Source: Marsupella aquatica (taxonomy: Eukaryota; Plantae; Marchantiophyta). Taken from it: 64,000 nt of DNA. Below the pieces are notes generated by a model. That model did not search any database, was not told the DNA's origin, and saw only the letters and a list, made by a program, of their open reading frames with translations. The stretch lies in assembly GCA_973895155.1 (NCBI GenBank), contig OZ316891.1:10355875-10419874 (forward strand). Direction: 5' to 3'. Position 1 is the first letter of the stretch. The number at the start of each line of letters is the position of its first letter. Both the position numbers and the translations under genes were made by a program. This document shows, piece after piece, positions 9,672-63,517 of this stretch.

Positions 9672-11192
9672 TCACGGGAGGCATGCAAATCTTCTCACCA
9701 GAGAAGTTGACTTCGTGCCCCACACAATGAGTCGGATTCTAGTTCCGCCAAAGTGCGCACGAATCCTCAACCGAGGCTGTCTGCCCTGTCTACCCATCTT
9801 GGGAACGGAAATGATGCAGGTGGCCTCCTTGGTTACACCTTGTCAAGCACGAATTTCGGATTCCTTTCTGGAGAGGAGTGCAAAGCGATCTCAATGTTTC
9901 CATCGTCGGGATATCCTTGTCGGTATAACGGGCACGTGTTGTACTCCACCACCGAATCAAACGGAACTTCCTCTCCTCGTCGAATAAGCGCCTGGAAAAC
10001 GTGGTCGCAATGTTTCTGCTTGGTGTCCTCCTGGTACACCAGATATTCGGCCGGATGTACCGCTTCGTCGAATGGCACGGTGGTGTAGAATGCATAGGTT
10101 CTCTTCGCAATCCTGGACTTGACAAAGCTCTCCCATTCACCGACCATTCCCAAAGCAACAGCCCCCCGAACCACTGCAGTGTCGGGGTTACGAGGAAAGA
10201 CGATCTTGGATATGTTCTCTTGCGCAGGACCGTCAGCAGGTGTGGGGGAGAACTCTTCTATGATCCTCTTCCTCACATTGGACCTCTCACGTTGGACCTC
10301 TCACGTTGGACCTCTCACGTTGGACCTCCTTGTGCATCCAATCCTCTTGTGGGTAACCAGATCTGTCGTCCCACCACCCAAGTCGACAACCACAAACGTA
10401 TTTCCATGGTACAGCGACTTTAATGTATTGTGGCTGTATATGCTGGCTGCTTCAGGCTCTAAAACCACGATCAGATCATGAAAACTGGCAGTGTAATCCG
10501 TGCACGAGGGACCGCGGACAAGCCCTGCCAACTCTGCAGAATCTTCCATTACTTGCCTGTGAGAATCCTCCCACAAGGCTGGAACAGTAAGACACCACTG
10601 AATATCTCGTTTGTCTACGTTTCTCCCATGTTTCCGCCCCAGCTCATGCAGAATGTGAGCGCTCATTCCTCTCAGAAAATCTGTAATAACCTTGAGCACA
10701 TGCAGGCCCTTCGGCAGGTCCACCAATGTCTTGTTATAGAGCCATAGCTTGAAGTAATCGATCAAATATCCATGCTCCTTAGGCAGCCTTAGCTCTTGAG
10801 CTCTCTCAGAAGTCCGCTTCGAACTCAAGCTAGACTGAGATTGCTCGGTGGCAAGTTCCCTATTAATATTCTTTGCCTGATCTTGAACAAGCTTCTTGTA
10901 TTGCACATAAGCTTCCCATCCCCATGCTTTGAACTCATAATTGTTTGGCTGGGTCCCTGGCATGTACCACACACAGGTCTTTGTCTTGAAAATTTTTCCT
11001 CCTACTGCAGCTTCCTGACTCGGCCAATCCGTGATGAGATGCACCATCTTATATATCAATCTCGAGGAATCCAGGTTCCAAGAGCGGTGACTCTGTATAA
11101 GCAGCTTTGGAAAAAGTTGTGCCAAAGTCTATGGCGACCACGAACCTTGGATCCTCCTCACGTTGTACAGCCCTACGTTTGGGGGCCATCAT
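9672..11192 (-). pseudogene. Intronless HSPA12-type (Hsp70-12-like) pseudogene
   Basis: ATG at 11192 gives MMAPKRRAVQREEDPRFVVAIDFGTTFS, then a frameshift in an AT run near 11050. It continues with DWP..KTKT, WGWEA, WCLTVPALW, VLEPEAAS and VVVDLGGGTTDL. A large internal deletion with repeat filler and a stop lies near 10300, followed by IVFPRNPDTAVVRGAVALG. A second frameshift near 9835 precedes GVTKEATC...AHFGGTRI. Confidence 0.85.
10272..10328. repeat. 14-bp tandem repeat (TTGGACCTCTCACG) x~4 at the Hsp70 deletion junction
   Basis: Read directly. Three extra copies (42 bp) keep the frame but introduce a TGA at 10301-10303. Confidence 0.9.
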
Positions 11193-36000: not shown

Positions 36001-36831
36001 GTTTCCTATCGCATCAAACATTGAGCTCGCACTCCGTGCGTCTATAGATATTTTATCATAATGAGTGTGGTCTTCAAGTTCTCCTGCGCAGTATCGGAGG
36101 AGATAAATAATTTCCTTCTTGCCTTGGAGAACTGCAATTGCTAGTGCATCCAACCCACTTTCCCCATCCTTGGCAAGTAGCAGATGTCTACGATCAGTTG
36201 TAGAGACATCATTACGAGAGATTGTGTTTGGATTGCCATACTTCTTCCTCACATGTTGCCGTCCCACACGAGAGTTCCCCTTTCTCATGCCATTTGCCAT
36301 TGAACAGAAAACATTGGTCACCAGAGTCTTCTGGAGTTTTCCAAGTGGACCTTTGGACGCTGAGCCACTTGTCTCTGCTGCTTGTGCACGCTCATCACCT
36401 TTCTGTGGGTCATTTTCTTGGACAGCATTGTCAGGCGGAAAGTCACTGCTGCTTGAACTTTCGCTCGCAGCTACCTCCTGTTCACCTGTTGGCGTTTGAT
36501 CAAGGAAACTCCACCTCTCGTATGCTTCATTAACGATGGAGAAGCAATGCAGATTACAAAGTCTTAGCACTTGCATGATCAGCTTCACGCATCCCCTACT
36601 TGCGCCCACGTGAAGCGCAGTGCGCCCCTTCCATAAGCTTTGAGTCCATCCAGTCGCCTCTCTTCGCTTCCGCCCTGCAACTTGTTGTGAAGGTTTGCTG
36701 TCCCATCCGACCTTCAAAAGACTCGGATAAACAGCCAACAGTTCCATGACAACAATGCAATCTTCCTCGAAAAGTGCCTGGTACCATTGGGATTTAACCT
36801 TCGCAGGAATTATATCTTCAGTTGCTGCCAT
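33009..36831 (-). CDS. Ankyrin-repeat + PGG-domain transmembrane protein (ACD6/ITN1-like), with an apparent frameshift at ~35820
   Basis: Ankyrin motifs GRTALHVGASRG, GRAPFHIAM, GRSPLQRAAILG, ETPLHAAL, HPLHLAASSG and EGNSALHHA. The C-terminus has TATLVGTTSYAG plus ~4 hydrophobic helices. Intron 34053-35038 is phase 0. ORFs 35815-36831 and 34940-35821 join if the T5 run (A at 35820-35824 on +) is T6. Confidence 0.85.
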
Positions 36832-39800
36832 GCCCGCGAGATGCTACGGGGATGATTTTAGGGTGCTCGCAGATCCGATGATAAGGTAGTCCTAGCTTAA
36901 TTCACTGTACAGCACTACAACGGGTAGTCAGATCATCAGGCGAAGCATTGGCAGAGTTGATACAGGAGGTGCAACAACGTGGGTTGATGATGACTTGATC
37001 GACAGCTGCAACTTGGGCATTGGAAAATTAATGGCACACAACTCAAATATATGACTGCGCAATGGAATAGACGGAGGTGGAGACAAAGGAGCTGTCAGTC
37101 CACAGCTCAGGGGAATTCATTAGATACATATATGATGACACATCTGCTTCTTGGCTTCAACGGCATTTTTCGGGCAGCCAGTTGCTACACACAAGGAAAC
37201 AGTTCCACAGGAAGGGATAACTGAGAAACACTTGGAACTGGAAAGAATGGAAGGATGCAAATCAGAGCGCACAAGGTGTAAATTGTAAGCAAGCACTAAA
37301 TCCTCCACAAAAAGCATGAGTGTAAGTATGTGGTTAGGAGTAAGGGATCAAACCTGTCATGCGGAGGATTTCTATCAGGGAATCTTGTCGATTATTGTCA
37401 CTGTTGGAGTATAGAAGTACAATGGAATTCTAGTAATGATTCAGGGTAAAATACAATGAGTGAGTAGTCAATGGAGGAGACGATGGGCACCCCATTATGG
37501 GAGGATAGGATGATTGAGAAGCAACAACAATTAGCAGACAACAGCGACAAGCGCGCGTTAAGCGGACAGTTATTAAATGTCACCAAGCAAGAGAAGAGAA
37601 GGGGATCGAGCTCTGAGCTTGACATTGCAAATGTTAATTGGAAACATCTCTCGTCGATGGCTTATTTAATCATTGATGGTGCCGAGTGACAGCTTTGAGT
37701 CATTGAGTCCAACTTTACAAATTTAAGCAGTAGAAGGTCCTGAACATCACTAAACCAAGTCACAGGTGAAGGCCGCTAAACTAAGGTTTGAATTTCCCAA
37801 TGCTCAAAATTCACGCACTCAGTTTATTCTTACTGGCTGGAGAGCATTAGGAGGTGAATTGCAAATTTACAAATGAGAGAGCAAGGCAGGAGATAGGGAG
37901 GGGACACAATCATCCAAGTCAGGAGGGCAGAAGGTTCAGCACCGGCGGAGAAAAATCAAAGTCAGTCAGACAGTTGAAGTTTGATATCAAATATAAACGA
38001 GGGAAGGACCATCCATGACCATTTTAGAAGTCGAGAGTGAGTATGTAAGTTTGCCTCTGCTTGCCTAGGGTATACTTGCAACTTCTGAAAGAGCTGTAGC
38101 AGCATTATTACGGTAGGTCTAGAATTGCGAATCCTCAGAACTCTAATAAACTGGGTGTAATCCAGCTAGACATTGTCTAAATAATCTATCTTGCTACGGT
38201 CTCCGGAGCTAGCTCTTCTCGTCTCCTTGATTCTCCCTAAAACCCGGACAGCCGCAGCCCGCGCGGACTGTGGGTTTAGGACGTCGTTATCAACATGCTA
38301 GAGACGGATTTCAACCGCAGTGACACTACAGCCTTAATTTAACGACATACAAATTTAATCGAGCAGGCACCACTATGTTGCCCACCTAAAAGTGGAAACT
38401 CTGAGTGACATGCATCTCAGAACAATTAATTCACAGTGTAGAAGCTAGTACGAGGTCTGGTTTTCAGCTTCACTTAAAGGAGCTGGCAAATCTGCCACTG
38501 AAGAACTCAGATTCAAGTGAGCAGCATTAGGTTCAGTGCTTTCAGATTCATGAGATGACTAAGTGTGATTGAGTACCGCGACAAAAACTCTTGCACGAAA
38601 AGATAGAATGAGAAAATGTGTAGGACGTACTTTCGTTCAAGAGTGAGTGCAAGTATTGTGTGAATCACATCAGTTTTCCCCGCAAAAAATGGAAGGAATA
38701 ACGTAAAAAGCGCAGGGTAAACACTAGTCGGGACGCGCCTAAGAGCAGCGTAGAACAAAACAGGAGTCACTGACTAAAGAACATAAGGTGGAAAAGAGAG
38801 GACACGACACTAAGGGTCCTGCTTTACTTCTGACTCATGGCATGTACTTATCATTGTATCTACAGTAGATGTTTAAGCCGACCGTGAAAGACTAATCTCA
38901 GTCCAGACAATTCATTTTCGTGACAACAAGACCGCGCACATGAAATCAAGAATCGAATTTTGTTTCTGAAATGATACATTAGGACTAAACAGACGGGTTA
39001 AGATAAATGTGAGTGCACAACTAATTGCCTTCACGGTTTGATCAATTTGATGATTGCGTTAAACCCAAGCAACCTCGATGTTAATCTATGAAATTGAATC
39101 GAATTGTCAGGAGAGAAACTTAAATCTATGTCTCCACTCTAGAAGAAACGACTATTGCATCAGCCGATAGATAACACGACTTACAAAGTAATGCCTTGAA
39201 TGTTTTATTTTGAACATCATACCTTGTCTGCCATACGATTCACTTTAACAGCCTTCAGAGTGTTGGTGACATTCCACTGGTTCAGTGCGGCACCGATAGG
39301 ACACAACACGGGCTTCACAATAGAGCACCTTCGATCTCTGCGAAACCCTTCGCCAAGTGGCTCGACAAAACAGACGTCCCTGATTTCTGACTTCAACACG
39401 GGACACGTTGTGTTCTCATCAATTTACTCAGTTCATGCGACCACCACGTTGAAATCCAGGTGCTGTGCATGACCTCAATCGCAACGGGGAACGTGGTGAA
39501 ATCTTTCCTCAGTCTGGGGCACGGCCGGCAGTTCACCAATGCTTGAGTTGCACAAAGCAGTCTTCCCTCGAAGGATACCTGGAAGTTCCTCAAAAGTATT
39601 AAATGTGGTACGGCTTGGGACCATCCGTTCAAGTGTGGTTGAAATCTGTTCAACAGCCCAGGGACTTGGATCACACTTGTTTTCACTAGTTAGATCGAGT
39701 AAGAAAAACCACTACAAATAAACAAGAAATCCCTGCTACTACAGAAACATACGAGTCGAAACTATTCCGTTACCGTGTTGCAAAGTTGAAAATTTGGAAG

Positions 39801-49418: not shown

Positions 49419-49564
49419 TCAACAATCTACGGTATCGAACTTGAAAGGCCTCATGGGGTCCTCCCCAAAATTGATGCTCACGTTTGAGTTGGGGCCCGTC
49501 AGGCTGATGGTGGGATACAGTCGCCCCTGAGTATGGGGGTCAATTTCAGCTCTGCCCACCATCC
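49419..49564 (-). pseudogene. 3' fragment of a SPRY-domain (RanBPM-like) gene truncated by the Mutator-like element
   Basis: MVGRAEIDPHTQGRLYPTISLTGPNSNVSINFGEDPMRPFKFD matches the SPRY C-terminal LYPTV.L...V..NFG..PF.FD pattern. Coding-like sequence stops exactly at the TIR at 49565. Confidence 0.7.
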
Positions 49565-50295
49565 GGGGGTATGATAGCCATGACAGAAAACAGAAAACAG
49601 AAAACCTGTTACCAGGAAATTTTTTGCTGTTAACAGTCAAATTTTACCTGTTACCAGTAAGCGATTCCCTGTTACCAGTTTTGCATCAACCATAGCCCTT
49701 TGGTCCGAATGAAAAACATCGCTAATCACAGAATTTTTCTTTAGTGAATTAGGTTTAAAACGAACAATTATTTTGTGTCATCCGATGGATGAAGAGTACT
49801 AGCAATCCTCCCTTGCAACAACATTTTGATCTGGAAGATAACTGAACACGGTATGGGGACTATATTCAATGAAACATTCATTCAAATATCACTATTCGTC
49901 CAAGCTAAAAAGTGAACCTTAGGGTGGGACCCACCACAGAACAAGTGAAGAGTAGTGTCCAAATGAACTCAATCAAAATGAGTTCACTTAAATGGACCGA
50001 GTACTGTGACAAACAAATGACAAAACACCCCCTAACGATTTATTTCAGAATAATTGAATAAACACGGCTTGAAAGATAAAACAGAATGATATCAACTTAC
50101 ACATTTTAAATAAAACATGTTGTAATGCTTACACTACATGCGTACATAATAAAGCAAGAAAAATAAGATTTTTGGAAGCAGCGCCCGGCGCTAACCAAAC
50201 AATACTGAATAAAACAAGTAACATATCCGTTGGGTAAAGACAAAATAGAGACTATCCGTTATATTGAACGACCTATCCGGAAGTTTTGGCCCCTA

Positions 50296-50709
50296 TTATA
50301 AGCCATTCAAGTTCTGCCTCTCCAAGACAAGCCTGACTTCGCCCACAGTCAAAATTGGTTGGCTACAAAGAGTCGACTCCTCAACCTCAAGTTTGAAAAC
50401 ATTTATGTACACCCAATATAGATGTTTACAAGGTATGTACAACTTGCCACGCGAATGTCGTAGGAAGAAGTCCTCACAAGAGCAAGCAGGGAAGATACAG
50501 ATTTGAACGAAGTACGTGCTTGGTGATCGATGGTTCTCATGGGTTCAAATTCAAAATTGCTTTCCAAAAGCATTTCCAGTACGAACATTCCATTCCCCAT
50601 CCAAACTCATCTCTTCTTGTCGTGCAGACTCCATTCGCTTAGTGTGACCCACAATGAGATTAGACCGAGGTCTTGAGTTCCTCCCATTCTGACGGGTATA
50701 ACCACCATG
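50296..50709 (-). pseudogene. SWIM zinc-finger exon of element 1
   Basis: A 138-codon frame after a TAG acceptor: ...TRQNGRNSRPR...KRMESARQEEM...YFVQICIFPACSCEDFFLRHSRGKLYIPCKHLYWVY...QPILTVGEVRLVL* (CxC...CxH SWIM). Two in-frame TGA at 50551-50553 and 50545-50547. Not in the ORF track. Confidence 0.85.
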
Positions 50710-50734
50710 CTAGCAAACAGTAAATAGATATTCT

Positions 50735-50890
50735 CATATGAGCCAATTTTTTCTCGTACAAGCAAAAATTTGTCTCGTACGAGTAAACAAGTTTCTTGTA
50801 TGAGCATATCTATTTACTCGTACGAGTTTCTGTTTTCTTGTATTAGTTTCTGTTTTCTTGTATGAGTATTTTTTTTCTTGTATGCATTTT
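50735..50890. repeat. ~20-bp degenerate repeat carrying the palindrome CTCGTACGAG and its C-to-T decayed forms (CTTGTATGAG)
   Basis: About 7 copies read directly in the putative intron upstream of the SWIM exon. Confidence 0.7.
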
Positions 50891-51072
50891 AGTTTCTTCT
50901 CTTCAGGGTATAGCGTCCATATATACAATAATTGTGCGGACAATATTATGGTGGGTCCCACCATTGTACAACATCAGAGGAAATTTCTTGACGATTTCAC
51001 ACAAGGACTCCAATATATTGCCACGAAATATGAAGTCAAAACAAAGTCATACAATACTAGCGCCCGGCGTCT

Positions 51073-52659
51073 TGCAATTGCATCTTCGGCCTTTAGCTCA
51101 CAAGTGAATATGGTGCAAAGTGCCCGATAATGATGATCATATACATGGGCACTGAAAGTAAGCCAATCTGCCGTGCTTCGATGCATCACGTCAAAACTTA
51201 CCCATGAACCCTCTAGCGACCCACCAGGTTTCATTCTTTGGAGCAGGTCCAGACCACTCCCGTCATCTTTTACGGTCATTTTAAAGATATGAGCACTCTT
51301 GTCCCGGCAGCCTTGACCAAGGAGCAAGAACCTATGAAGAAAAGGCAGTCGGATACACTTTTGCATCCTCACAAGAAATTCCAGTTCCCCTTTCCCCTTC
51401 TGATCTTGACGGACACTCCTTAACACGGATGCAAACTTCTGAGGAGATGCCACGACCATCAAGGACTCCCAAATTTCCTTCTCTTCTTCAAGAGAGATTT
51501 CTTCAACAGAGGCCTCGCAAAATGTACTCGTCAGTGTCTCAGTTGCAGAGTTTTTTATCCCTGCTTGGGATGCCATGGGGTTTGCAGTGAATCCCTTCTC
51601 CAGATGAGACCTTGCAACCTTTTTTGCCTCCCTCGAAAAGACCCGTCGACTGGGATGATTGTGAAATCCCATATGAACAGCTAGTCGCGACATGTGGGCC
51701 AAAGACTTAACGTCAACTTTTGCAGATGGATACATGTAGAACATTAGAGCAGGGCAGGCCTCAATGCACATCGGAGGTTCGGAGCAATGGTGACAAACAA
51801 CTCCACCTTCGGAGATCAACTCCCCAACTCGGAATGGGCCCAAAATTTTTGGGGTTCTTGCCCACATCTCATTATTTTGAAACTTGTTGTCTTTCCACCA
51901 CGGACAAGCATTATTTCGACACTACAGCGATCCCGTACACTGGACTTTCCCAAAATCCCACATTTTCTTCGGAAGAACATTTGAAGACGTTTTCACAATC
52001 CGAGTCTAATAATAAAAATCCTTACCACGATCCATATCTTTCAAACGTTTACCTTTTGCGTTCACACAGTCTATCGGGGGTAACTCAAAAACCACATTCC
52101 CATTGTAAGATGTGGGAAGACTGGGCACTACGTGATGAACAAAATCACTCCCCCTTATAAACCGAGACAATTCACTATGACCTTTGGATTTCAAGATTAT
52201 ATCCATTGCGCTCTGCCAGTACGCAGTCAAGGGCACAATCTTTTCTCGATCCGCATTAGACTCCTTTTTAACCTCGGATGGGTAAACTGGAATCTTCTCT
52301 CCGAGAGTAGTTGTCGCTTGCTTATCATCTCCAGAACTTTCCGAGAGTTTGATGACATCGAGTTTAGCCGCTGTGGGAGGATGAGTACAGGAGGCCCCAA
52401 AATCTCTCAAAACAAAAACCTCATATTCTTTTTGAGCCTCCAGAGTCCAATATCTTTGACCATGAACAACATCGTCGAAAACTGGAGTCTCCCCCAAACA
52501 AACCGATACTAACGATATCGCTAAAATAGACTCCTTGGCGACATCAAATCTCACTCCCAAATATTCCTCTAAAACACGCTTTGATTCAGATGATTCGAGG
52601 ACGGGAATTGTGATTACATCCCGAGTGTCCTTCCTCGTGACAACGGTATTTTGAGCCAT
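51073..52659 (-). pseudogene. MULE transposase (GCM/WRKY-like zinc-finger + N-terminal part of the DDE domain), truncated
   Basis: ORFs 52006-52659 and 50974-51867 are one frame broken by TAG at 52006-52008 and 51922-51924. Motifs: VVFELPP, QCTGSL*CRNNACP, CHHC...CIEACPALMFY...RLAVHMGFHNHP and WVSFDVMHR...WLTFSAHVYD...IFTCELKAED (first catalytic Asp region). The rest of the DDE domain is missing after ~51073. Confidence 0.8.
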
Positions 52660-53782
52660 GGCTTCAAAAGAGGGATATGCCTTTGCCCCGTGCGAAATGA
52701 AATATGTTTATCATGAGATTCGAGTACGAGAAGTAAACATTTCATTCTCACTATAGAGTCGTTATAGATTTGGACGCACTCCATCAATGACGTTTTGTCG
52801 TCTTACCAACGACAGGATTTGGGTTCATCGTTACTAGCGCCTGGCGCTACCTCTAAGTGTAAAACACTCTTGGGTGAGGACTACGAATGCCAATAATAAT
52901 AGCGCCTGGCGCTACCTCTGGGTGCAAACATTCTAGGGTGAGGAGTACGAAGGCAATTAATAATAGCGCCTGGCGCTACCTATTTCAATGGACTTGAAAA
53001 CATTCAATAGAAGGAAAAGTACGATAACGCGATTATGGCTGGAGATTATTCTGGTCGCTTTGTTGTTGGGCTGGAAAATCGGCCAGAGTTTGTTGATACT
53101 TCCGGTAAGGTCTTCCTCGATCTTTTACAAAACAAAGAAGTGGTTGCACCAACTCCTCCTAAGAAGATTCCTGGAAGTAAGAAGCAGGACAAGCTCCGTG
53201 CTATTCTAAATTTTGATTCGGAAGACGAGGATGAGGGTGGCAATGCTTCTCAGCCGGGTTCTCAGCAATCTAAAGATGATGAGGTGTCGAAGAATGTGGT
53301 GGACCTTGGATCTGGAGATGAGGACAGTGAAGAGTCAGAAGAGTAATTTTCTTTAGCTTTCTTTCTCTCATTGTATACTTTTTTCCAAAGAACTCCTATA
53401 CTCCCTTTTGTCTAGAAAATTCGCCCAATTTCCCGACTTCGACTAAAGAACTCCAGTTCAAATTCTCAGGTCAGAGTGGAATCTTTGGAGGCATTTTCAA
53501 CTTCGAAGGAACGTCTCTAGGAACGTTGTACAGACCCTAGAGAAGCCATTTGTTCTCCCCTCTTATGCTGAAAAGGCGGCACGACGGGCAGATTCAGTCA
53601 GGACGCTTACTTGGGAGAGTAAGGGTCTTAGACTCAGGAGAGGCTCAGATAGAAAGTTTGTGCAGAATCACTTCGTAGATGATATTGCAAAATCCAAGTA
53701 TGTGGACGACGAAGCAGAGTCCACTGATAGATCAAAAAGTAGCAGTTCTGAATTGATCTCAAAGTCGAGTGGTGGTCTTTAG
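52658..53782 (+). pseudogene. Spliced accessory gene of unknown function in element 1 (acidic central region)
   Basis: Exon 53011-53342 (KEKYDNAIMAGDYSGRF...DSEDEDEGG...) joins through a phase-2 GT-AG intron 53343-53415 to exon 53416-53782, an open frame apart from TAA at 53444-53446. A possible first exon 52658-52822 has one TAG and a weak donor. Confidence 0.55.
52835..52978. repeat. 64-65-bp tandem repeat x3 carrying the palindrome TAGCGCCTGGCGCTA
   Basis: Copies at 52835, 52900 and 52964; variants at 50180, 51058, 53858 and 53922. Confidence 0.9.
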
Positions 53783-54075
53783 TTTTCCTTGTTTTATTTA
53801 CCCGTTCATGGAGAACGATGATACTAAATAAGAACGCAATTACGTGTCATATTAGAGTAGCGCCCGACGCTATTACTGTAGCCGGTAGTTCAAAGAGGTT
53901 TTTATTCGGATGTTTTCCTTATAGCGCCCGGTGCTAGTATAAATGTACTCAATGGCCGCTTCAGGTCCAATATAGGTGACAATATTTTCTTATCCTTTGG
54001 TGTCTTTTTTTGGGTGCACATTTGCTGGTATGAGTTTTGCTGTTTGCTGTTTGCTGTCACGGAGAGATCCCCCCC

Positions 54076-54717
54076 ATTCTGACTACCCAGCCGGACATTT
54101 GGCTCCAAAAACCTTATTGTTTCTGGGAACACGTTCACATTTATCCTAAGGTCAAACAAAGATGGCGCAAATCGACTGGATCCTGTTGTTTGGGCTAAGA
54201 CAAGTCCTTGCTCTTCGAGGAACGTGATTTCAGAAGGACATAGGCTTGTACCCTTCACAACAGGCAAAATTTCAGGAAGAGGAGGAAGTTGATGAACACC
54301 ACGACGCGGACGACTCTTATAACAGGTTTGGTTTGGGCAGAACCAAATCATTTCGGAGATCGGTTCGCCCCTGAAGAGACAATGGCCCTTCATGACAATT
54401 CCAACAACACCGTCAGACAAATGGAAGCCAACCTTCTTGATACGATTTCGACACTCATCGCGATCAGAACTCCCATTGAGTGTCCCATTACACTGGGGAC
54501 CTGCTCCATACTTGGACGTCCGTCGCAACTGCCACTGCCCCAGAGGGACATCCTTCTCTAGCACAATCGTGCGTGGAAGTGGATTCTGAAGTGAGGTTGG
54601 TGCACTGAGCGGAGGTTTTGTGGATCTTGTTGTACGGGTTGTTTGAGGGGTATTGTCCAGTGAATCAGTATCACCATCTGATAACACAGTGACGGACCAA
54701 ACGAGAAGTGTGACCAC
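54076..54717 (-). pseudogene. Cys-containing TE-associated ORF, probably the N-terminal part of a SWIM gene, truncated by the element 1 TIR
   Basis: WQLRRTSK..PQCNG...CRNRI...IWFCPNQTC...PPLPEILPVVKGTSL..SEI.FLEEQGLVL resembles, from memory and unverified, the domain preceding SWIM in bryophyte MULE-like elements. The ORF tail 53902-54075 is read-through into the TIR. Confidence 0.55.
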
Positions 54718-55187
54718 ACTTCTCGTTTTGCCCGCGGCAAAAAAAGTTTCTAAGGAAAAAAAGTCTTGGATACGAAATTAGTATTCCCCCTAAAAACTAG
54801 TTTTTCGGTTTCAAAAAATGGGAAAAATCGAAGTGAATACGAAGATGGGATACGGCGTATCCCATTTCGGATCCAACCGCGGAATTCCAAAAACAAAAAA
54901 AACAAATGCAGTAAAAGTGCCGATATTGTTTTACCTGTTAAGAATATTCCCAAATGATTCTTCTTAACGGTAACATTTAACCAACTGCGCTGCAACTGCA
55001 GCCAAATACTAACCACGGTCAAGGAGAAAACTATAAATAGGAGATCCCCGCTTGAAAAATTTCCGCTCATTTTTTCTCGCTCTCTATCCTCTTCCTCTCG
55101 ACGAATGCCCACCGTCTATACAAACTCGTATTCTCCAAAAATCAGATTTGACTAACAGGTGAGAATCTTCATGCAAATGGCAAGGAC

Positions 55188-56016
55188 GAATCCCGAATGG
55201 GATACGGCATATCCCGTTTGGGATTCAACCTTCAAATGTCTAGTTTTTGTTTCTATTTAGTTGAAAAAGGAGGTTGGATGCGAAGTGGGATAGGGGGTAT
55301 CCCATCTCGCATCCAACCTCCGAATATGAAGTATCTTAGCCTCCAAATGTCAAAACCTCAACGTTGAATGCAAAATGGGATATGGCGTATCCCGTTTGGG
55401 ATTCACCCTTCAAATGTCCAGTTTTTGTTTCTCTTTAGTGAAAAAAGGAGGTTGGATGCGAAGTGGGATACGGGGTATCCCATCTTGCATCCAACCTCTG
55501 AATATGAAGTATCTTAGCCTCTAAATGTCAAAACCTCAACGTTGAATGCGAAATGGGATACGGCGTATCCCGTTTGAGATTCACCCTTCAAATGTCCAGT
55601 TTTTGTTTCTCTTTAGTGAAAAAAGGAGGTTGGATGCGAAGTGGGATACGGGGTATCCCATATCGCATCCAACCTCTGAATATGAAGTATCTTAGCCTCC
55701 AAATGTCAAAACCTCAACGTTGAATGCAAAATGGGATACGGCATATCCCGTTTGAGATTCACCCTTCAAATATCCAGTTTTTGTTTCTCTTCAGTGAAAA
55801 AAGGATGTTGGATGCGAAGTGGGATACGGGGTATCCCATATCGCATCCAACCTCCGAATAATAAGTATCTTAGTCTCCAAATGTCAAAACCTCAACGTTG
55901 AATGCGAAATGGGATACGGCGTATCCCGTTTGGGATTCAACCTTCAAATGTCCAAATTTGGTTTCTCTTTAGCTAAAAAAGGAGGTTGGATGCGAAGTGG
56001 GATACGGGGTATCCCA
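55188..56016. repeat. Palindrome array A: 178-bp unit x~4.7, two hairpins per unit (10 copies of GGGATAC-NNN-GTATCCC)
   Basis: Cores at 55199, 55287, 55377, 55465, 55555, 55643, 55733, 55821, 55911 and 55999 (alternating 88/90 bp); a solitary copy at 54847. Confidence 0.95.
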
Positions 56017-56178
56017 TGTGGTATCTCCCTAGAGTTTTCTTGGCATGGGAAAAATCTTATGGATTGCTGATTGTTTCGCAGGCGAAGTTCAACTAAACAC
56101 GCACTGAAGCTCTTGCTGCCTTTTAGTGACTCAAGCTTTTGCTTTCTTGGAAAAACGACGTTTTCTCTTGTGAGTCTA

Positions 56179-56504
56179 ATGGCGGTCCAGAATCAAAACC
56201 GTGAGAAACGTGCTCGTCGATTGTATAAGCGATTAGTTGCACTCAAAGTTCTCCGTCCTGGATTAGGAGCGCTATGGACGGGAGGCGTGGATCCACTGAT
56301 AGTTTGAATCCACTCCGAATAGAGTTTTGTGAAAAAAATGAAGACGGAGTTCCAATTCGGTCGAGGATATGTTTGAGTGGTTGTCTGCACTCTGTTAATT
56401 CTTCTTGTAATTATTGTCGTGATGCCCGAAACAAATATCATCGATTAGCATATTTGTGTTGTCGGATTTGGAACGAAGATCCTTGGGTGAACTTATTAAG
56501 TTGA
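56179..56504 (+). pseudogene. Small basic/Cys-rich ORF with a probable frameshift
   Basis: MAVQNQNREKRARRLYKRL... in one frame and ...RICLSGCLHSVNSSCNYCRDARNKYHRLAYLCCRIW... in an overlapping frame; no family recognised. Confidence 0.3.
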
Positions 56505-56680
56505 ATCTTCTTGATTAGTGTGTAAGTGTTTAGGTGAACGTTCTTGGGTCAAAATTTTTGTGAATATATTTTTCTTTTGATCAAAGAAATAAAATCAGTT
56601 TTTCCATCACTGTTTTGTAGGTTGTTGAGAAAGTGCTCACCATCTCATTTATTACTCCAGGTATCCACTCTTATTTTGGA

Positions 56681-57220
56681 ATGGCCGTCACTAAGAACCC
56701 TGTCTTTACAAGGTTAGCGATGTCATTCGACAAAGAGAAGAAACAAATTCAGCAAAAAAGTGGCCAAAGGGAATCCATATTGCTTTTGGATGGACTTCCT
56801 AATGAGATTGTTGAAACGTTCATTTGGCCCATTTTGAAAGTTTGTAGTATAGAGGATGAATTTGATTCCTCCAAGAACCAAGCTGATGAAAGATTGATGC
56901 GATTAAAAACAATGGTGTGGCTTGGATGCACCTCCAAGAAATGGAACCAACTCGTAATTTGTACACGAGTCTGGGGTATTCTTAGACTAGCAAGAAGCCA
57001 GTTTGAGGAAGTAAATGAAATGCTGACAAGCATTCCCGATGGAAAACCCCTTCAAAATGTTCATATTGAAGCTTTTGTTAGGATGGAAACACTGAATCTT
57101 CCTCCAATCGATTTCTTAGGTTTATTTTCAAGGTCTGACTTAAATTGATTTCAAGAAGACTGGCACAATCTTGAGAAAGATGAGCAAGCAAGGCTCTTGG
57201 AAATGTATGGGGAAGCTTAG
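56681..57220 (+). pseudogene. F-box-like protein in element 2
   Basis: LLDGLPNEIVETFIWPIL...LGCTSKKWNQLV...VW fits the F-box LPxEI...L..xSKxW pattern with an insertion. The frame continues past TGA 57146-57148 (likely CGA) to TAG 57218-57220. Confidence 0.6.
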
Positions 57221-57301
57221 AGCTTTATTTTGTGGCACAATTCCGGATGAATAAAGAGTTTTGTGATTCTACCCTTACATCAACCCCATTCGCTAAGCGT
57301 A

Positions 57302-57401
57302 AAATCTATTTGGTTTAATCCAAGGAAGTGGGGATATGCCTAATCTAAATCAAATCTATTTGGTTTAATCCAAGGACGTGGGGATATGCCTAATCTAAAT
57401 C
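57302..57401. repeat. 50-bp direct duplication
   Basis: AAATCTATTTGGTTTAATCCAAGGA(A/C)GTGGGGATATGCCTAATCTAAATC x2. Confidence 0.9.
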
Positions 57402-57687
57402 TAGTCAGAAACAAAGTCCTATCAAGCGAAAAAAGTATAAATAGAGCTCCGGACTCCAACCCTCCGCTTTTGGATACACCTTATCGCTTGTGTATACAAA
57501 GGTGATAAAGTATAAATAGGAGTGCCTGGTCAGAATGTGCACGCTCATTTCTTTTCCTTCTCAACTTCGTTTGCCTCCGCGTTTTTCTCGGGCCGCAACA
57601 TCTCTATAGCTTTTCGTATTTTCTCGAATCAAAACAAAAAAACAGGTAAAACCTCAATAAACTCTCCCCTCCTTGGCGCACTTGATT

Positions 57688-58412
57688 GTTGAATCCTGAG
57701 TGGGATACGCCGTATCCTCCTTTGCATTCAACTCTATTCTTTGCCCTTTTGTTCAAAGAACAGAACTTTTCAATGTTGAATACGAGATGGGATACCGCGT
57801 ATCCCATCTCGCATCCAACACCCTCTTTTTAGTATTCCATCGGAACCTCCTTGCTGTTTGTTGACTTTGAATACGAAATGGGATACCACGTATCCCATTT
57901 TGGATTCAACTACATCTCTCTGGTCTTTTATTGTAGAGTACTAGAAATTCCTGATGTTTAGGGTTTAGCGCCTTTGCGGAGGATCATTGCAAAAAGAGCC
58001 ACATTGGATGATGTTGGATACAAACCGAGATACCCCGTATCCATTTCGCATTCAACTCCCTATTTTTTGTTGTTTGCATCAGACTAGGCAATTGTTGATG
58101 TTGGATGCGAAGTGGGATACCTCGTATCCCATTTCGCATTCAACTCCCTATTTTGCGTTCTTTGCATCGGACTCGGCAGTTGTTGATTTCGAATGCGAAA
58201 TGGGATACCGTGTATCCCATTTCAAATTCAATTCCCTATTTTTTGTGTTTTGTATCAGACTCGAGGCAATTGTTGATGTTGGATGCGATGTGGGATACCG
58301 CGTATCCCATTTTGCATTCAACTCCCTATTTTTTGTACTTTGCATCAGACTCTCGGCAGTTGTTGATTTTGGATGCAAAGTGGGATACCGCGTATCTGAT
58401 CTTGCATTCAAC
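57688..58412. repeat. Palindrome array B (8 copies, opposite loop orientation to arrays A and C), immediately upstream of the ParB-MTase ATG
   Basis: Cores at 57702, 57789, 57880, 58027, 58114, 58202, 58292 and 58382 (spacing 87-91 bp except one 147). Confidence 0.92.
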
Positions 58413-58870
58413 TACTTTTGTATGTTTACGCCCTGGTTCAGTGTCAATCTTTTACAGGAACATGTCAAACAAATCAAAGTCGTCTGGTTCGACCGAATCT
58501 TCACGGACGTCTATCGTCGATGAGATTTGGAAGAAGGACCTTTACACCGAGGAGAAACTTGTGAGGAATAGGTGGTACTTCAGGGATGCCCCGGCAATGG
58601 ATATTCACAGAGCCTATGACGGTCCAGCGGTGTGGTTGGTTATAGTTAAGGGTAAAGACCATTGCCATTATGGATTAGTCGTGGACACTGCGGAGGCAGA
58701 TATCACCGATGCAAAAACCAAACAGCTGAAGAAGATTCCAATGTACCTTTGCATTCTTCCAAACAATGGCTTCACTGTAGTTGTCCTCAACTACAAGAAA
58801 CTCGATCGGGTCTCGATGAACACATTTCCTGATGACCCGATCTGCAAGCTAATTTTGGAAGTGTCGGAGA

Positions 58871-58985
58871 TTGAGGACTTTTCTTATTGGTGTTTGAAAT
58901 TTGTCTTGAAGTCTTGGAGGGTTGTTGAGGACTTTTCTTATTGGTGTTTGAAATTTGTCTTGAAGTCTTGGAGGGTTGTTGAGGA
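58871..58985 (+). repeat. Exact 54-bp in-frame tandem duplication (EDFSYWCLKFVLKSWRVV x2)
   Basis: TTGAGGA recurs at 58871, 58925 and 58979, consistent with a microhomology-mediated duplication. Confidence 0.95.
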
Positions 58986-60505
58986 TTTTACCAAGGTAGC
59001 ATATAGGTCCGTCGTTGGAGCCGACTTTGGCGTCAAAGAGCGTCCTCTGAAGTTGAAAGTGACAAAGCCTACCGATCCGGCTTCGAAGTCAGGGGAGATG
59101 TCTAGAACACCCTCGACAAAGGAGAAATCTGCCACAATTTCTTTTAAGGAACCGGCAAAAAGGAAGCTTGTAGATCAACTCTCCGGGGAAGGTTCTAAAG
59201 CAGCGGTGTTAGGAGAAGCTGTTGGCAAGAAGAAACTGGATCGATGTGACATCCAGAAGCGCGCACCATCTGCACCCGGAAGTGTTGTCTCATCTTTGGT
59301 CCCAACAATTTCACAGACACCGTCTCAGATTCCTTCAACTTCGTCAGGTGGGCCTTCTCTATCATCTAGGGGTGCTGTGAAAGAAAAGAAAAACGATTCA
59401 ACAGATATCACCACAGCTTTGCAGCGGGAAGAGACACTTGTGGTTCGTGAAGAAGTGTCTTGGTTGATGGAGACCAAGAGAGTTCAGAAGACAACTGTTA
59501 TTCTGAAAACAACTAACCTGCTTCTTGTTGACGATATTGACAACAAGAACTCAACGTTGGTTCGAACAGTAGATCGGTTGCATGTGGAGAACATCAAGAC
59601 TTTGATGAAAATGAATCCAACAAATTTCACCACGCCATTTGTCTTGTTTGTGATCCTCGAAGACTGCTTGACAGTGACAGACTGGGACCCAGAAAAGGCA
59701 ACAAGCTGGAGATATTGAGTGATTGGAGGTAATCACGGTGCTCGGGCTAAGAGAGAATTGTATCAGGCTTATGGGAGAGAGATCTTCAATGAACTCCAAG
59801 CTTGGGTGTATGCTGGTCTCACAAGGGAGGACATTCAGAAACTTAGCATCCAACATAATATTGATCAGGAGTACAGGAAAAAAATGAACAACATTGATCA
59901 AATCCGAACAATGCATAAGATTTTCCTTGCCAGAGGTATGGCAAAAACCAAGGAGACTAGAGAAGCGTGTGCGATGGAGGTTTGCCTCGATGGGTTTTTT
60001 CCGGGGGACGCCACAAGCCTAAAGAAGCATGAACCTCTCTTCCAAATTGCGTTTAGGTCGAGTAAGGTCTGGGAACTCCAAGACCAGATCTTTGAGATGT
60101 GGAACAAGTTGGAGATCAAAGGGCAGAATAAGCAGAAGTCACCGATCAAGAAACTGAAGAAAAAAGGGAAAGCGCAGTTGATTCCAAAAGCTTTGAATAA
60201 GCTTGCAGGGGGCCTTACCCTGACACCTTGGAGAGCAATCCAGGGAATTGAACACGACCAATTTTTGGAGTCCCTTCTTCTACGAGTGAAGGACCGGATG
60301 ATCTCTTTGGAGCAGATGGCAAAAAAAGCCGAGAGTTACAAGAAACTTGTGAAAATCAGCAAGCTTTTTGTTCAGTTATCAGGGCAGCCAGACTGGGCGA
60401 CTTGCAAACAAATGTTTCCGAAAGAAACAAAATCTACCAAGCTCAAAAGATGGAGTGAGAAGTTGTCCGATGTGGTATGTTCTCCCCTTCCATTGATTGG
60501 ACTTT

Positions 60506-61236
60506 TCTTGGATTCACTTGTGTTTATTTAACGTTTGTGATGTTTCAATAAGGTTTTTGCTTGGTCGAATGCGAAGTGGGATACGGCGTATCCCATCTTG
60601 GATTCACTTGTGTTTATTTGACATTTGTGATGTTTCAATGAGGTTTTTGCTTGGTCGAATGTGAAATGGGATACGGCGTATCCCATCTCGGATTCACTTG
60701 TGTTTATTTGATGTTTGTGATGTTTCAATGAGGTTTTTGCTTGGTCAAATGCGAAATGGGATACGGCGTACCCCATCTCGGATTCACTTGTGTTTATTTG
60801 ACGTTTGTGATATTTCAATGAGGTTTTTGCTTGGTCGAATGAAAAGTTGGATACACGGTATCCCATCTCAAATTCACTTGTGGTTATTTGACGTTGGTGA
60901 TATATCAATGTGGTTTTTGCTTGGTCGAATGCGAAGTGGGATACGCGGTATCCCATCTCGGATTCCCTTGTGGTTATTTGACGTTGGTGATGTTTCAATG
61001 TGGTTTTTGCTTGGTCGAATGCGAAGTGGGATACGCGGTATCCCATCTCGAATTCACTTGTGTTTATTTGATGTTGGTGATGTTTCAATATTGTTTTTGC
61101 TTGGTTGAATGCGAAGTGGGATACGGGGTATCCCATCATGGATTCAATTATGGTTATTTGACGTTGGTGATGTTTGAATGGGGTTTTTGCTTGGTTGAAT
61201 GCGAAGTGGGATACGGGGTATCCCATGTCGCATTCA
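60506..61236. repeat. Palindrome array C: 90-bp unit x8 filling the ParB-MTase intron
   Basis: Cores at 60578, 60668, 60758, 60848, 60938, 61028, 61118 and 61208. Confidence 0.95.
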
Positions 61237-62118
61237 TCGTCCAGATTTGATTGTTTGAATGCCCAAATGGTTCTCCCCATTGTCTTTTCTCTGGATTCTT
61301 TTAACAAGTTTGCATTTGCAGTTGAAAGCTTTTTCGAAGAAGAAGAACAAGGATGCAATTGGTGCCGATGCGGTTGAGAAGCCTTCGGAGGAGCTGAGTT
61401 CAAGTGTTATTCCCCCGGGGTTTAAGAATTATGTTCAAGAAGCGATTGAGAACTACAACCGTCGTCGTGGGATTGAAACGGTTGAAGCAGAGTCGAGTGA
61501 ACATCGATGGAAAAACGCTAATGGAAATTTCATCAGATATACATTGCATTGTGGAGATGTCAGGGCGCTGGATAAGTTTGTAGAGAAAAGGAATTACACA
61601 CTTGCAATTGCAGACATTCCTTATGGATTCAATGCGCCTGGCTCTGAAAATGATGAGGTCCCATTTTTAGAGAGTGATATTGTGGATATGGTGAAGTGTT
61701 TTGCCAAGGTGACAAGTTCAAAGATGTGGAGGTTTGTTGTGATTCACTCTTTGCAGCAAACTTGGTCTGTGATGAATGCCCTGGGAAAAACTTGTAATGC
61801 AGGTGTAGAGGCTGGAATTTGGGAGAAGCCAAATGTACATGCTCATCCTTCGGGGAATCGATTGGCTTGGGCTTTTGAAAACTGGTCAATCGGATATTAT
61901 CACGAGAGTGGTATTAGGACCAGAGACATGTACAATTTTGAACATGATGAAAAAAGGGTAAATATCATAAAAGTCCCTTGTGTTACAAAGAAATGTGTAA
62001 CACCATTGGGGGAAATAGTGAACCCTTACCAGAAGCCGATAGCTCTAGCAGATTGGTTCATTCAACATTTTAGTGAAGCAGGGGATTGGGTTGCTGATTT
62101 ATGTGCGGGGAGTGGTTC

Positions 62119-63164
62119 CCCTGGGCCCTCACTCTTACTATATTAAGTGAACCCCCCTGAGAACACACACCCCCCGTGTACCCCTTCTTAATATTTTTGT
62201 TCACAAAAAAAATCCCATTGTTAATGTAAAAATATTAACTTTTCCTATTAAATTTTATCCTTTTGTAAATTATAATAGAGTTTTTCAAGGAATTGAAAAC
62301 ATCCTTGAATTTTTAGAATTACAAATATCATATTGAAATAGATAAAACTTTATCTTTCATAGGGGACTTGTATGTTATGCTCGATCTTCAAGGTACATAT
62401 TTTATATATAAATAAACAAAATTAGTACGAGAGAAAATTATAGTTCTTCCTATAGTTTACACACAGCCATGCACTCTTGTCTTAGTGTTCGCAAAAGTGC
62501 CTCTGAACTTCTAGTTTCATAAGTACTATATATGTATAATCCAGGAATAATACTCCAAAGTCTGAACCAACTATAACAAACATTGTTGAGCGCCTGAGAC
62601 CCCTCCCTCAACACACAAACACATTTGGCCTCATACCTGGTTGTTTGATTCAAGGGAATTCAAAAGTAATCTTGTCCTTCCATGTGGGATTGATCCATGG
62701 ATCCCCATCAATCCTAGTTTCCCAACCAAGTTGGGCCCAAAGATTATGGCCCAAAGATTATGGCCCAACATTTACTCAACTCCCCAGTTAACTCCTAAAC
62801 ATGCGGGTAAACATGTCTACCCAAACCCATTTGTTTCACCATAAGGGGACCAACGAAACCAAACTTGCCTTAAGACGATAAATAATTAAATGTTTGATTT
62901 ACTATATGGACACATGTGCAAATGAAGTGATGACATGTGTGCCAACCATATAGTGACGCTTGTACTTGGCATTTTGGGTACCCTTGCATAAGATTTATGT
63001 GACATGTATTTGATAAGAGTCTTATTACTAATATTATGGCGAATGTATATAGAGGGATGCTGCCTACTTTAAAAACTATTATAAAAATTAGTTTGCATTA
63101 CATTAAAAATACTCTTGTGTTGTTCGCACGTCCTCCCTGTATTCGTAACACTAAGGACCCAGGG
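62119..63164. mobile_element. 1046-bp non-autonomous TIR element with 8-bp TSD, inserted in the MTase SAM-binding motif
   Basis: TSD AGTGGTTC at 62111-62118 and 63165-63172. Ends are CCCTGGGCCCTCACT and (reverse complement) CCCTGGGTCCTTAGT. The interior is AT-rich and non-coding, and removal restores DLCAGSGSTSCA in frame. Confidence 0.93.
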
Positions 63165-63517
63165 AGTGGTTCGACCTCATGCGCTACCTTGTTAGGAAAA
63201 CGTCTGGTGACAGCCGTGGAGCTCAGTTCAAGCCACATGGATTGTATCCGGACCCGACTTATCACGCTGGATGAATCGTGGGACTTGAATGATGAAGCAA
63301 CAGAGGAGGGTACAGGACCCATGAGCTTTGAGGTTCAACCACCTATTGGTGGTACTACGAGCACCCTGACCACTGGAACTTGCATCATTACAACCGCGGA
63401 GGAGAATGACAATTATGAGGATGAAGAGGATGAAGTGGATGAAGTGGAACATGAAGCTCCGGCACTTGATCTTGGCTCATTCCTTGAGGTGTAGACTTTA
63501 GTTTCATTAGTTCTCTC

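What the first reader, a model, noticed from the sequence alone, without database searches (positions are those of the whole stretch)
54076..63517. Candidate new system: plant transposon-borne ParB-DNA methyltransferase with its own arrays of palindromic sites and an F-box gene
Seen: a ParB-like/amino-MTase fusion gene, an F-box-like gene and ~27 copies of one palindrome in three arrays, all in non-coding positions (between divergent genes, just upstream of the MTase ATG, and inside its intron). The motif was not seen elsewhere in the window. Established: Arabidopsis VANDAL MULEs encode VANC proteins that bind short motifs amplified as tandem repeats in the element's own promoters and introns to counter silencing; bacterial ParB loads at palindromic parS sites and spreads. 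Inference: the element may encode a self-recognition module in which the fusion protein is recruited to the arrays and deposits a non-host mark (6mA or 4mC) on the element, for anti-silencing or transposition control, while the F-box protein may target host factors. This copy is dead.
Basis: partly seen in the sequence, partly recalled or inferred. Interest (0 to 1): 0.93.

Follow-up and report, generated by a model that had tools for sequence, protein, structure and literature searches.

The report
Plant transposon's self-targeting DNA methylase
A broken copy of a much-repeated plant jumping gene carries a gene predicted to join a bacterial-type ParB DNA-binding module to a DNA methylase, plus 27 copies of its own 39-letter palindrome, mostly in predicted introns, which the enzyme likely binds and would mark with methyl-adenine to keep the element active; the idea was already proposed for seaweed transposons, but here relatives with different proteins carry different palindromes, which makes it directly testable.

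Summary
In detail: 26 copies of TGGGATAC-N3-GTATCCCA (0.14 expected) plus one degenerate copy, none elsewhere in the window. They lie inside a multi-copy element that starts at 54683, not 54076; the 'divergent gene' belongs to a Mutator-like element into which it inserted. 26 of 27 sites fall in three predicted introns. The large gene has a predicted ParB fold with its DNA-binding helices and a beta-class amino-methylase with DIPY, a motif of working HindIII-type adenine methylases. This copy is broken by a stop and a 1,046-bp insertion, both absent from other copies. Four related metagenome loci carry their own 38-bp palindromes in the same slots; three close proteins (81-85%) share one motif, a more distant one has another. 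F-box support is weak. Binding, methylation and anti-silencing are inferred, not shown. The design is in print as a hypothesis for brown and red algae (2025), and this scan noted it many times elsewhere in the same genome. Verdict: a land-plant variant of a proposed kind, with a defined, testable target.

The parts
54683..54728 (+). Left end of the ParB-methylase element (starts AACACAGTG, then a 30-bp near-perfect hairpin at 54699-54728)
   Evidence: Contigs end or begin here from both sides: loose ends behind 54682 in X1 and X3, many unrelated flanks before 54681-54683 in X5, pieces starting at 54683/54684 in X5 and X3; hairpin. AAC start resembles the AACCG terminus of Sola1-1_Ec32
54836..54874 (.). 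Lone 39-bp palindrome, about 150 bp inside the left end
55188..56026 (.). Array 1: 10 palindromes, 178-bp (88+90) tandem unit, inside a predicted 5'-UTR intron (55159-56081) of cargo gene 1
   Evidence: TATA-like box at 55032 and GT/AG sites read from sequence; similar acceptor TCGCAG|GCG just before the ATG in L005
56179..56487 (+). Cargo gene 1, first coding exon: small Cys/His-rich ORF, frameshifted at 56296 in this copy
   Evidence: 32% identity over 74 aa to the ORF upstream of the ParB-methylase in L005, pairwise E 2e-7; other copies have one more base at 56296; no Pfam family
56621..57220 (+). F-box-like ORF, possibly the second exon of cargo gene 1 (in-frame GT/AG join is possible); in-frame TGA at 57146
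   Evidence: ESM Atlas F-box clusters 0.92, 10 of 10 top family hits agree but only 123-134 of 256 features shared; Pfam F-box E 0.15, below cut-off; AlphaFold pLDDT 42.5
57691..58409 (.). Array 2: 8 palindromes (about 90-bp period) inside a predicted 5'-UTR intron (57646-58457) of the ParB-methylase gene
58462..60474 (+). ParB-methylase gene, first coding exon: conserved N-terminal domain of unknown family, low-complexity linker, ParB N-terminal fold and ParB-type helical DNA-binding region; in-frame 54-bp duplication at 58871-58978; stop at 59716
   Evidence: AlphaFold pLDDT 88.8; Foldseek Noc/ParB/KorB, E 1.3e-5; VIA Z 11.4, rmsd 2.1 over 98 residues to 7bm8; stop codon's T reads C in contigs of 4 of 4 runs; N-terminal domain 26% to L005
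60567..61235 (.). Array 3: 8 palindromes, 90-bp tandem unit, inside the predicted phase-0 intron 60475-61321
   Evidence: intron at the same place, with arrays, in L001, L002 and L003
61322..62118 (+). ParB-methylase gene, last exon part 1: beta-class amino-methylase, motif IV DIPY, then motif I DLCAGSG
   Evidence: Pfam PF01555 E 4.3e-4, below cut-off; relative P0001 passes it; PHROG 67 E 1.2e-10; family profile hits DpnA, CcrM, MboIIA, RsrI
62119..63164 (.). 1,046-bp hAT-like non-coding insertion (CCCTGGG ends, 8-bp duplication AGTGGTTC) that breaks the methylase
   Evidence: empty site joined in contigs of 3 of 4 runs; 'hAT-like' is my reading of the 8-bp duplication
63173..63494 (+). ParB-methylase gene, last exon part 2 with acidic tail and stop
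   Evidence: tblastn to P0001 296-357 and to L002, L003
63518..64000 (.). Second CCCTGGG-type insertion; pushes the element's right end (and any transposase) out of the window
   Evidence: sequence
49565..54682 (-). Not part of the element: the Mutator-like target. Element B (left end about 49565, SWIM-finger ORF 54682-54073 + 50682-50296) holds element A (50683-54072, truncated Mutator-type transposase, 9-11-bp duplication)
   Evidence: joint 50682-54073 with 11 shared letters in 4 of 4 runs; termini; SWIM E 0.062; transposase relatives

Best explanation
This is a dead copy of a multi-copy plant DNA transposon (likely Sola1-type) whose accessory gene is predicted to encode a ParB-type DNA-binding module fused to an adenine methylase, and the protein likely binds, as a dimer, the family-specific 39-bp palindromes kept in the element's own introns and would methylate adenines there, likely helping the element stay expressed despite host silencing. 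Shown: the palindromes, their confinement to this element, the multi-copy state, the breaks, and the match between protein clade and palindrome type in relatives. Predicted: the fold and the exon structure. Inferred: binding, catalytic activity, 6mA rather than 4mC, the anti-silencing effect, and the Sola1 identity of the carrier.
For: (1) 27 sites in this element and 0 in window 1-49565. (2) Between arrays the 39-bp cores are 76-81% alike but the 25-bp flanks only 35-40% (background 30%), so the word is kept, not the repeat unit. (3) 4 of 5 true relatives (L001, L002, L003, L005; L004 is 1,086 bp of coding DNA only) carry 17, 20, 8 and 3 copies of their own 38-bp palindrome. With the window's 27, that is 75 of 75 outside inferred coding exons. 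(4) Cross-scan is block-diagonal. L001/L003/L005 (ParB region 81-85% identical) share AGCGAGAC-N2-GTCTCGCT; L002 (60-66%) has CCGATCCAAACATCGG; the window (46-50%) has its own. All three keep an outer GAAT and an inner GA at the same distance from the centre. (5) The model matches ParB/Noc/KorB beyond the N-terminal domain: KorB 8qa9 201 residues, rmsd 4.3, Z 9.6; Spo0J-parS 4umk over residues 160-315, Z 5.9. (6) D-x-P-Y/H and the SAM-binding motif are kept in relatives, and DIPY is motif IV of HindIII-like N6-adenine beta-class methylases (PMC12294265 figure legend and text). (7) G-T and A-C mispairs are of similar number (35 vs 25 in the window, 14 vs 19 in L001), as expected for a double-stranded DNA site. 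(8) VANC targets lie in tandem repeats in introns and upstream regions (PMC5735166 section 9).
Against: No binding, methylation or expression data. Only three motif types, and L001, L002, L003, L005 share one assembly prefix; co-variation on shared ancestry does not say which element protein binds. The nucleotide-binding motif reads GGNHGARA, not the GERR-type arginine motif of CTP-clamp ParBs (consensus recalled). The DNA-binding-domain match alone is middling (Z 5.9). The 38-39-bp sites are over twice the length of a typical parS (recalled). CpG retention is not specific: element 0.79, inserts 0.40, but neighbouring element A 0.81 and the element's own exons 0.62-0.65. No transposase or right end lies in the window, so the carrier is unproven.
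Confidence: 0.55

Rival explanations
1. The protein binds its palindromes but works mainly as a KorB-like transcription regulator of the element's own two promoters (autoregulation, or timing of transposition); any methylation is absent, secondary, or not about host silencing.
For: 18 of 27 sites lie in predicted 5'-UTR introns just behind two TATA-like boxes; KorB and Noc are among the best fold matches; some relatives have lost D-x-P-Y (P0102, P0121); no element-specific CpG protection.
Against: The methylase domain is the most conserved part across clades (60-64% to the window vs 45-50% for the ParB region), with both catalytic and SAM motifs kept.
Confidence: 0.22
2. The palindromes are sites for another element protein (the transposase or the small Cys-rich protein), and the ParB part only activates or dimerises the methylase.
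For: Transposases and TnpA proteins bind clustered motifs and activate their own copies (bioRxiv 10.64898/2026.08.24.746577, listing and passages); phage ParB proteins activate DNA dioxygenases without needing the CTP residues (PMC13229309 abstract); the Cys-rich ORF is conserved beside the gene in L005.
Against: Sites cluster in internal introns of the ParB gene, not at the ends; those phage ParBs lack a DNA-binding domain, whereas this model has ParB-type DNA-binding helices; long two-fold symmetric sites suit a ParB-type dimer.
Confidence: 0.15
3. The arrays are neutral tandem repeats, or RNA hairpins that affect splicing, with no protein partner.
For: Arrays grew by tandem duplication, and introns tolerate repeats; about 78% of symmetric positions can pair (367 of 468).
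Against: Cores are conserved across arrays whose flanks are close to background; the same geometry with different inner words recurs in three clades; no G-U bias; G-G clashes are tolerated in 9 copies; L002's asymmetric motif occurs in both orientations; no Rfam match.
Confidence: 0.08

Closest known systems
Accessory gene of Sola1-1_Ec32, Ectocarpus (PMC12477816; passages and supplement rows seen; figure and FASTA supplement not seen)
   Same: Transposon-borne fusion of a ParB-like domain and an N4C/N6A methylase, about 1,050 vs 1,104 aa; proposed to bind and modify its own element; terminus starts with AAC
   Different: Land plant rather than brown alga; the passages I read name no palindromes ('palindrom' 0 hits in the main text); here a defined target, intron placement and a second cargo gene. 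Sequence homology to the Ectocarpus protein was not tested
Plavaka accessory genes PAG2/PAG3 of Bostrychia (bioRxiv 10.1101/2025.02.11.637652; passages seen; supplements closed)
   Same: ParB-like gene on a giant DNA transposon with adjacent tandem arrays of inverted repeats, proposed as self-binding sites
   Different: There ParB is fused to a 2OG-oxygenase and the methylase (with SET) is a separate gene; EnSpm/Plavaka carrier; here ParB and methylase are one gene
VANDAL/VANC anti-silencing system of Arabidopsis (PMC5735166; abstract and section 9 read)
   Same: Accessory protein plus family-specific motifs amplified by tandem repeats in the element's introns and upstream regions
   Different: VANC has DUF1985/DUF287 domains and short non-palindromic motifs (YAGTATTAY), no methylase; its function is shown, here it is not
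Bacterial ParB/Noc/KorB with parS/NBS/OB sites; phage ParB-terminase-locus methylases and the chlorophyte ParB-HTH Dam family (PMC4738411; passages seen)
   Same: Fold of the N-terminal and DNA-binding regions; palindromic sites; ParB linked to an amino-methylase
   Different: Altered nucleotide-binding motif, no ParA, fused beta-class methylase (the chlorophyte fusion is described as Dam/DpnM type), spliced gene in a eukaryotic transposon
Marchantia MpDN4MT1 4mC methylases (bioRxiv 10.1101/2021.02.12.428880; passages seen)
   Same: Bacterial-type beta-class amino-methylase in a non-seed plant
   Different: Host genes with TSPPY that write 4mC in sperm; here D-I-P-Y, fused to ParB and carried by a repeat

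Membership tests
Transposon ParB + amino-methylase accessory proteins (Sola1-1_Ec32 type) | ParB-like domain and N4/N6 methylase in one protein | tested here: met
   full-length relatives carry both (P0007, P0019, P0024)
Transposon ParB + amino-methylase accessory proteins (Sola1-1_Ec32 type) | Carried inside a multi-copy mobile element | tested here: met
   left end with varied flanks and an empty site; thousands of divergent contigs laid
Transposon ParB + amino-methylase accessory proteins (Sola1-1_Ec32 type) | Sequence homology to the Ectocarpus protein | not tested
   its sequence was not fetched
Sola1 transposons | Sola1 transposase on the opposite strand | tested here: inconclusive
   none in the window (right end displaced); L003 has a convergent 182-aa ORF with no Pfam family
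Sola1 transposons | AAC-type terminus, TIRs and 4-bp target duplication | tested here: inconclusive
   left end starts AACAC vs AACCG; a CACAG start two bases later would fit EnSpm; right end and duplication not visible
Mutator/VANDAL elements | Mutator-type ends and transposase belong to the gene-carrying element | tested here: not met
   Mutator-type ends and transposase belong to elements A and B, outside the boundary at 54683
Mutator/VANDAL elements | VANC domains DUF1985/DUF287 | tested here: not met
   no such Pfam hit in any ORF scanned
CTP-clamp ParB (Spo0J/Noc/KorB) | ParB N-terminal fold followed by helical DNA-binding domain | tested here: met
   predicted model; Z 11.4, rmsd 2.1, 98 residues (7bm8); Z 9.6, rmsd 4.3, 201 residues (8qa9)
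CTP-clamp ParB (Spo0J/Noc/KorB) | Arginine-rich GxxRxxA/GERR CTP motif | tested here: not met
   invariant GGNHGAR in close relatives; canonical motif recalled
CTP-clamp ParB (Spo0J/Noc/KorB) | Loads at its palindrome and spreads | not testable with these tools
   needs biochemistry
Beta-class N6-adenine DNA methylases | Motif IV before motif I, D-x-P-Y catalytic motif | tested here: met
   DIPY then DLCAGSG; DIPY in HindIII-like enzymes
Beta-class N6-adenine DNA methylases | Methyl transfer to adenine N6 | not testable with these tools
   no modification data; 4mC not excluded
F-box proteins | F-box domain above family threshold | tested here: inconclusive
   Atlas 0.92; Pfam 12.5 bits vs cut-off 20.5; model pLDDT 42.5

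The most novel reading that the evidence does not exclude
Streptophyte transposons run a private, fast-diversifying epigenetic code: each family's ParB-methylase reads its own 38-39-bp palindrome and writes 6mA on its own introns to block host 5mC silencing, while a co-carried F-box-like protein removes a host silencing factor. Each protein-palindrome pair would be an orthogonal, site-directed methylase.
Probability: 0.25. Interest if true: 0.85.

Novelty: new variant of a known kind. Interest (0 to 1): 0.52.

Why it matters
Two 2025 papers proposed that algal transposons carry ParB-linked enzymes that bind and modify their own DNA; I saw no test of this in the passages read. This family supplies three protein-palindrome pairs with a shared geometry and different inner words, and a methylase whose motifs look functional, so a specificity-swap experiment and a look at long-read modification calls can settle it. 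If true, it is an anti-silencing strategy in land plants that writes a mark rather than only removing one, a transposon source of 6mA in plants, and a set of site-directed methylases.

Tried and rejected
No whole genome is held, so no genome-wide copy census, right end or target duplication. No RNA holder was listed. Of 30 metagenome loci, 5 (L001-L005, 48-54% identity) were kept. L006-L030 and all 21 viral loci (28-37%, short) were dropped: the one I read (L031) is an unrelated phage ORF that merely contains IIGGNHGARA; the other 45 were judged by their similar match pattern and not read. The wide structure search did not run, so only Foldseek and its re-alignment were used. The F-box ORF folded alone gave an unusable model. 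The SWIM-ORF piece found no relatives at similar length and only leads under 0.9 in the Atlas. My first reading, that the ParB gene sits in the Mutator-like element starting at 49565, was dropped. A 'pseudo-methylase' reading was dropped. An RNA-hairpin reading found no strand bias and no Rfam family. CpG retention was not specific. The ParB alignment was in the wrong frame and was redone; three chance matches at 4 mismatches (21219, 25132, 57470) were removed before the counts. Paper searches for a land-plant report found none; the library lacks most subscription papers, including the cited Iyer 2011 chapter, and bioRxiv supplements were closed. No complex prediction was run.


Full report
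Observation. The palindrome is real. TGGGATAC-N3-GTATCCCA matches 26 times at up to 3 mismatches, all between 54846 and 61225, against a shuffle mean of 0.14; a degenerate 27th copy is at 58026. With its outer arms the site is about 39 bp. There is one lone copy and three tandem arrays of 10, 8 and 8 (periods 178 = 88+90, about 90, and 90). None is in window 1-49565. Between arrays the cores are 76-81% alike while 25-bp flanks are 35-40% (background 30%), so the word is what has been kept.

Boundaries. No genome is held, so I laid public contigs on the region. They show a nest of five elements. A Mutator-like element B begins near 49565 and carries a SWIM-finger ORF on the minus strand. A 3.4-kb Mutator-type derivative A (50683-54072) sits in that ORF: contigs of 4 of 4 runs join 50682 to 54073 with 11 shared letters, and its truncated transposase has relatives at 39-51% identity. 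The ParB-methylase element starts at 54683: contigs of X1 and X3 continue past 54682 with other sequence that keeps B's frame open, while contigs of X5 begin at 54681-54683 with unrelated flanks. A 1,046-bp insertion with an 8-bp duplication breaks the methylase; its empty site is joined in 3 of 4 runs. A second insertion of that type at 63518 moves the right end out of the window. The left end reads AACACAG; Sola1-1_Ec32 ends start AACCG, while a CACAG end is also listed for an EnSpm family. The empty-site junction favours the AAC start, so Sola1-like is my reading, unproven.

Genes. TATA-like boxes and GT/AG sites predict two + strand genes, each with a 5'-UTR intron holding an array (55159-56081, 57646-58457); the third array fills the intron 60475-61321. 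So 26 of 27 sites are in predicted introns; no RNA data were available. Gene 1 has a Cys/His-rich exon that is conserved upstream of the ParB gene in relative L005 (32% over 74 aa) and an F-box-like ORF with weak support; I saw no F-box-like match in L005. Gene 2 is about 1,050 codons. Its stop at 59716 reads C instead of T in contigs of all 4 runs, so it is particular to this copy. The middle region has 167 relatives at E up to 0.001; among the 29 of them whose clusters I looked up, named ones are from Chara braunii, Riccia sorocarpa, Adiantum nelumboides, Ginkgo, and, more distantly, abalone, a sea cucumber, amphioxus and Clastostelium. The host is therefore likely a non-seed land plant; it was not identified. 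AlphaFold with 50 sequences gives pLDDT 88.8. Foldseek's best hits are Noc, ParB and KorB (E 1.3e-5). VIA-align gives Z 11.4, rmsd 2.1 over 98 residues for the N-terminal domain (7bm8), Z 9.6, rmsd 4.3 over 201 residues for KorB (8qa9), and Z 5.9 for the DNA-binding region alone (4umk). The conserved motif is GGNHGAR, not the arginine-rich CTP motif of clamp ParBs (recalled), so sliding and spreading should not be assumed. The C-terminal domain is a beta-class amino-methylase with DIPY and DLCAGSG; many relatives keep D-x-P-Y/H with x = I, V, A, F, L or P, though P0102 and P0121 have lost it. DIPY is given as catalytic motif IV of HindIII-like N6-adenine methylases (PMC12294265, passages), so this family is not a pseudo-enzyme on motif grounds and 6mA is likelier than 4mC (the Marchantia 4mC enzymes have TSPPY).

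Comparative test. A metagenome scan returned 30 loci, 5 of them true relatives. L001, L003 and L005 carry 17, 8 and 3 copies of AGCGAGAC-N2-GTCTCGCT with outer GAAT arms; L002 carries 20 copies of CCGATCCAAACATCGG, again behind GAAT; L004 is coding only and has none. No locus has another's motif. Protein identity follows motif type: 81-85% among L001/L003/L005, 60-66% to L002, 46-50% to the window. Sites lie upstream of the start, in introns (the ParB/methylase intron is at the same place in the three loci that span it) and behind the stop; 75 of 75 sites are outside inferred coding exons. Limits: three motif types only, four loci from one assembly, tandem copies are not independent, and shared ancestry does not name the binder. 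G-T and A-C mispairs are similar in number, which fits a double-stranded DNA site better than an RNA hairpin. CpG retention (0.79 vs 0.40 in the inserts) is matched by neighbouring element A (0.81) and is not evidence of protection.

Mechanism. Most likely (0.55) the fusion protein dimerises on the family palindrome through its ParB-type helices and methylates adenines at or near it, marking the element's promoters and introns as self and opposing host silencing. Shown: sites, placement, co-variation, copy state. Predicted: fold, exons. Inferred: binding, activity, base, effect. Rivals: binding as a KorB-like regulator with methylation secondary (0.22); another element protein binds and ParB only activates the enzyme, as for phage dioxygenases (PMC13229309 abstract) or self-binding transposases (0.15); neutral or RNA repeats (0.08).

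Known work. Ectocarpus Sola1-1_Ec32 carries a 1,104-aa ParB-like + N4/N6 methylase, and the paper proposes a class of accessory proteins that bind and modify their own transposon (PMC12477816, passages). The Bostrychia preprint reports tandem arrays of inverted repeats beside ParB-like PAG3 genes and makes the same proposal (passages). VANC/VANDAL is the proven functional analogue. Six searches found no land-plant report, within a library that lacks most subscription papers; unseen supplements of the algal papers may list such repeats. This scan's earlier notes describe the same design many times in this genome; they are unreviewed and not independent support.

Verdict. Real, and more than chance; anatomy corrected; a land-plant variant of a kind already proposed but, in what I read, not tested. 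Its value is a defined set of protein-palindrome pairs and an apparently competent methylase. Interest 0.52.

Noticed in passing
window 50179, 52835, 52900, 52964, 53858, 53922 (partial at about 51058): A second palindrome, TAGCGCC-N-GGCGCTA, six copies (0.02 expected), confined to Mutator-like elements A and B; A's transposase is cut off right at a partial copy. It may be the cognate site of another accessory protein or of the transposase.
   Followed up: partly
window 50683-54072: Element A: internally deleted Mutator-type element with a Cys/His-rich N-terminal transposase region that has no Pfam match, plus two short + strand ORFs (53011-53346 with an acidic tail, 53447-53782).
   Followed up: partly
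window 49419-49564 (minus): Element B appears inserted into an exon ending LYPTISL...SINFGEDPMRPFKFD, which looks like the end of a SPRY domain (recalled; Pfam found nothing).
   Followed up: no
window 54683-54732: The terminal 50 bases, with a 30-bp hairpin, are very abundant with many flanks in a run from another organism (X5), suggesting non-autonomous relatives that share this end.
   Followed up: partly
window, L001, L002, L003, L005: All three palindrome types keep an outer GAAT about 18 bases from the spacer and an inner GA 4-5 bases from it; a candidate shared contact or methylation target.
   Followed up: partly
L003:2991-3539 (minus): A convergent ORF ends 340 bases behind the methylase gene, with two palindromes between them; it may be the C-terminus of the transposase (no Pfam hit).
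   Followed up: partly
proteins P0074, P0102/P0172, P0140, P0131: Distant relatives of the ParB region occur in abalone (conserved 543-548-aa protein in four species, possibly domesticated), sea cucumber, amphioxus and Clastostelium.
   Followed up: no
window 9833-11128 (minus) and 33009-36843 (minus): Fragments that look like an Hsp70-like gene and an ankyrin-repeat membrane-protein gene (read, labels recalled).
   Followed up: no
window 58462-59100: The N-terminal domain of the fusion protein is conserved in L001 and L005 but has no Pfam family.
   Followed up: partly
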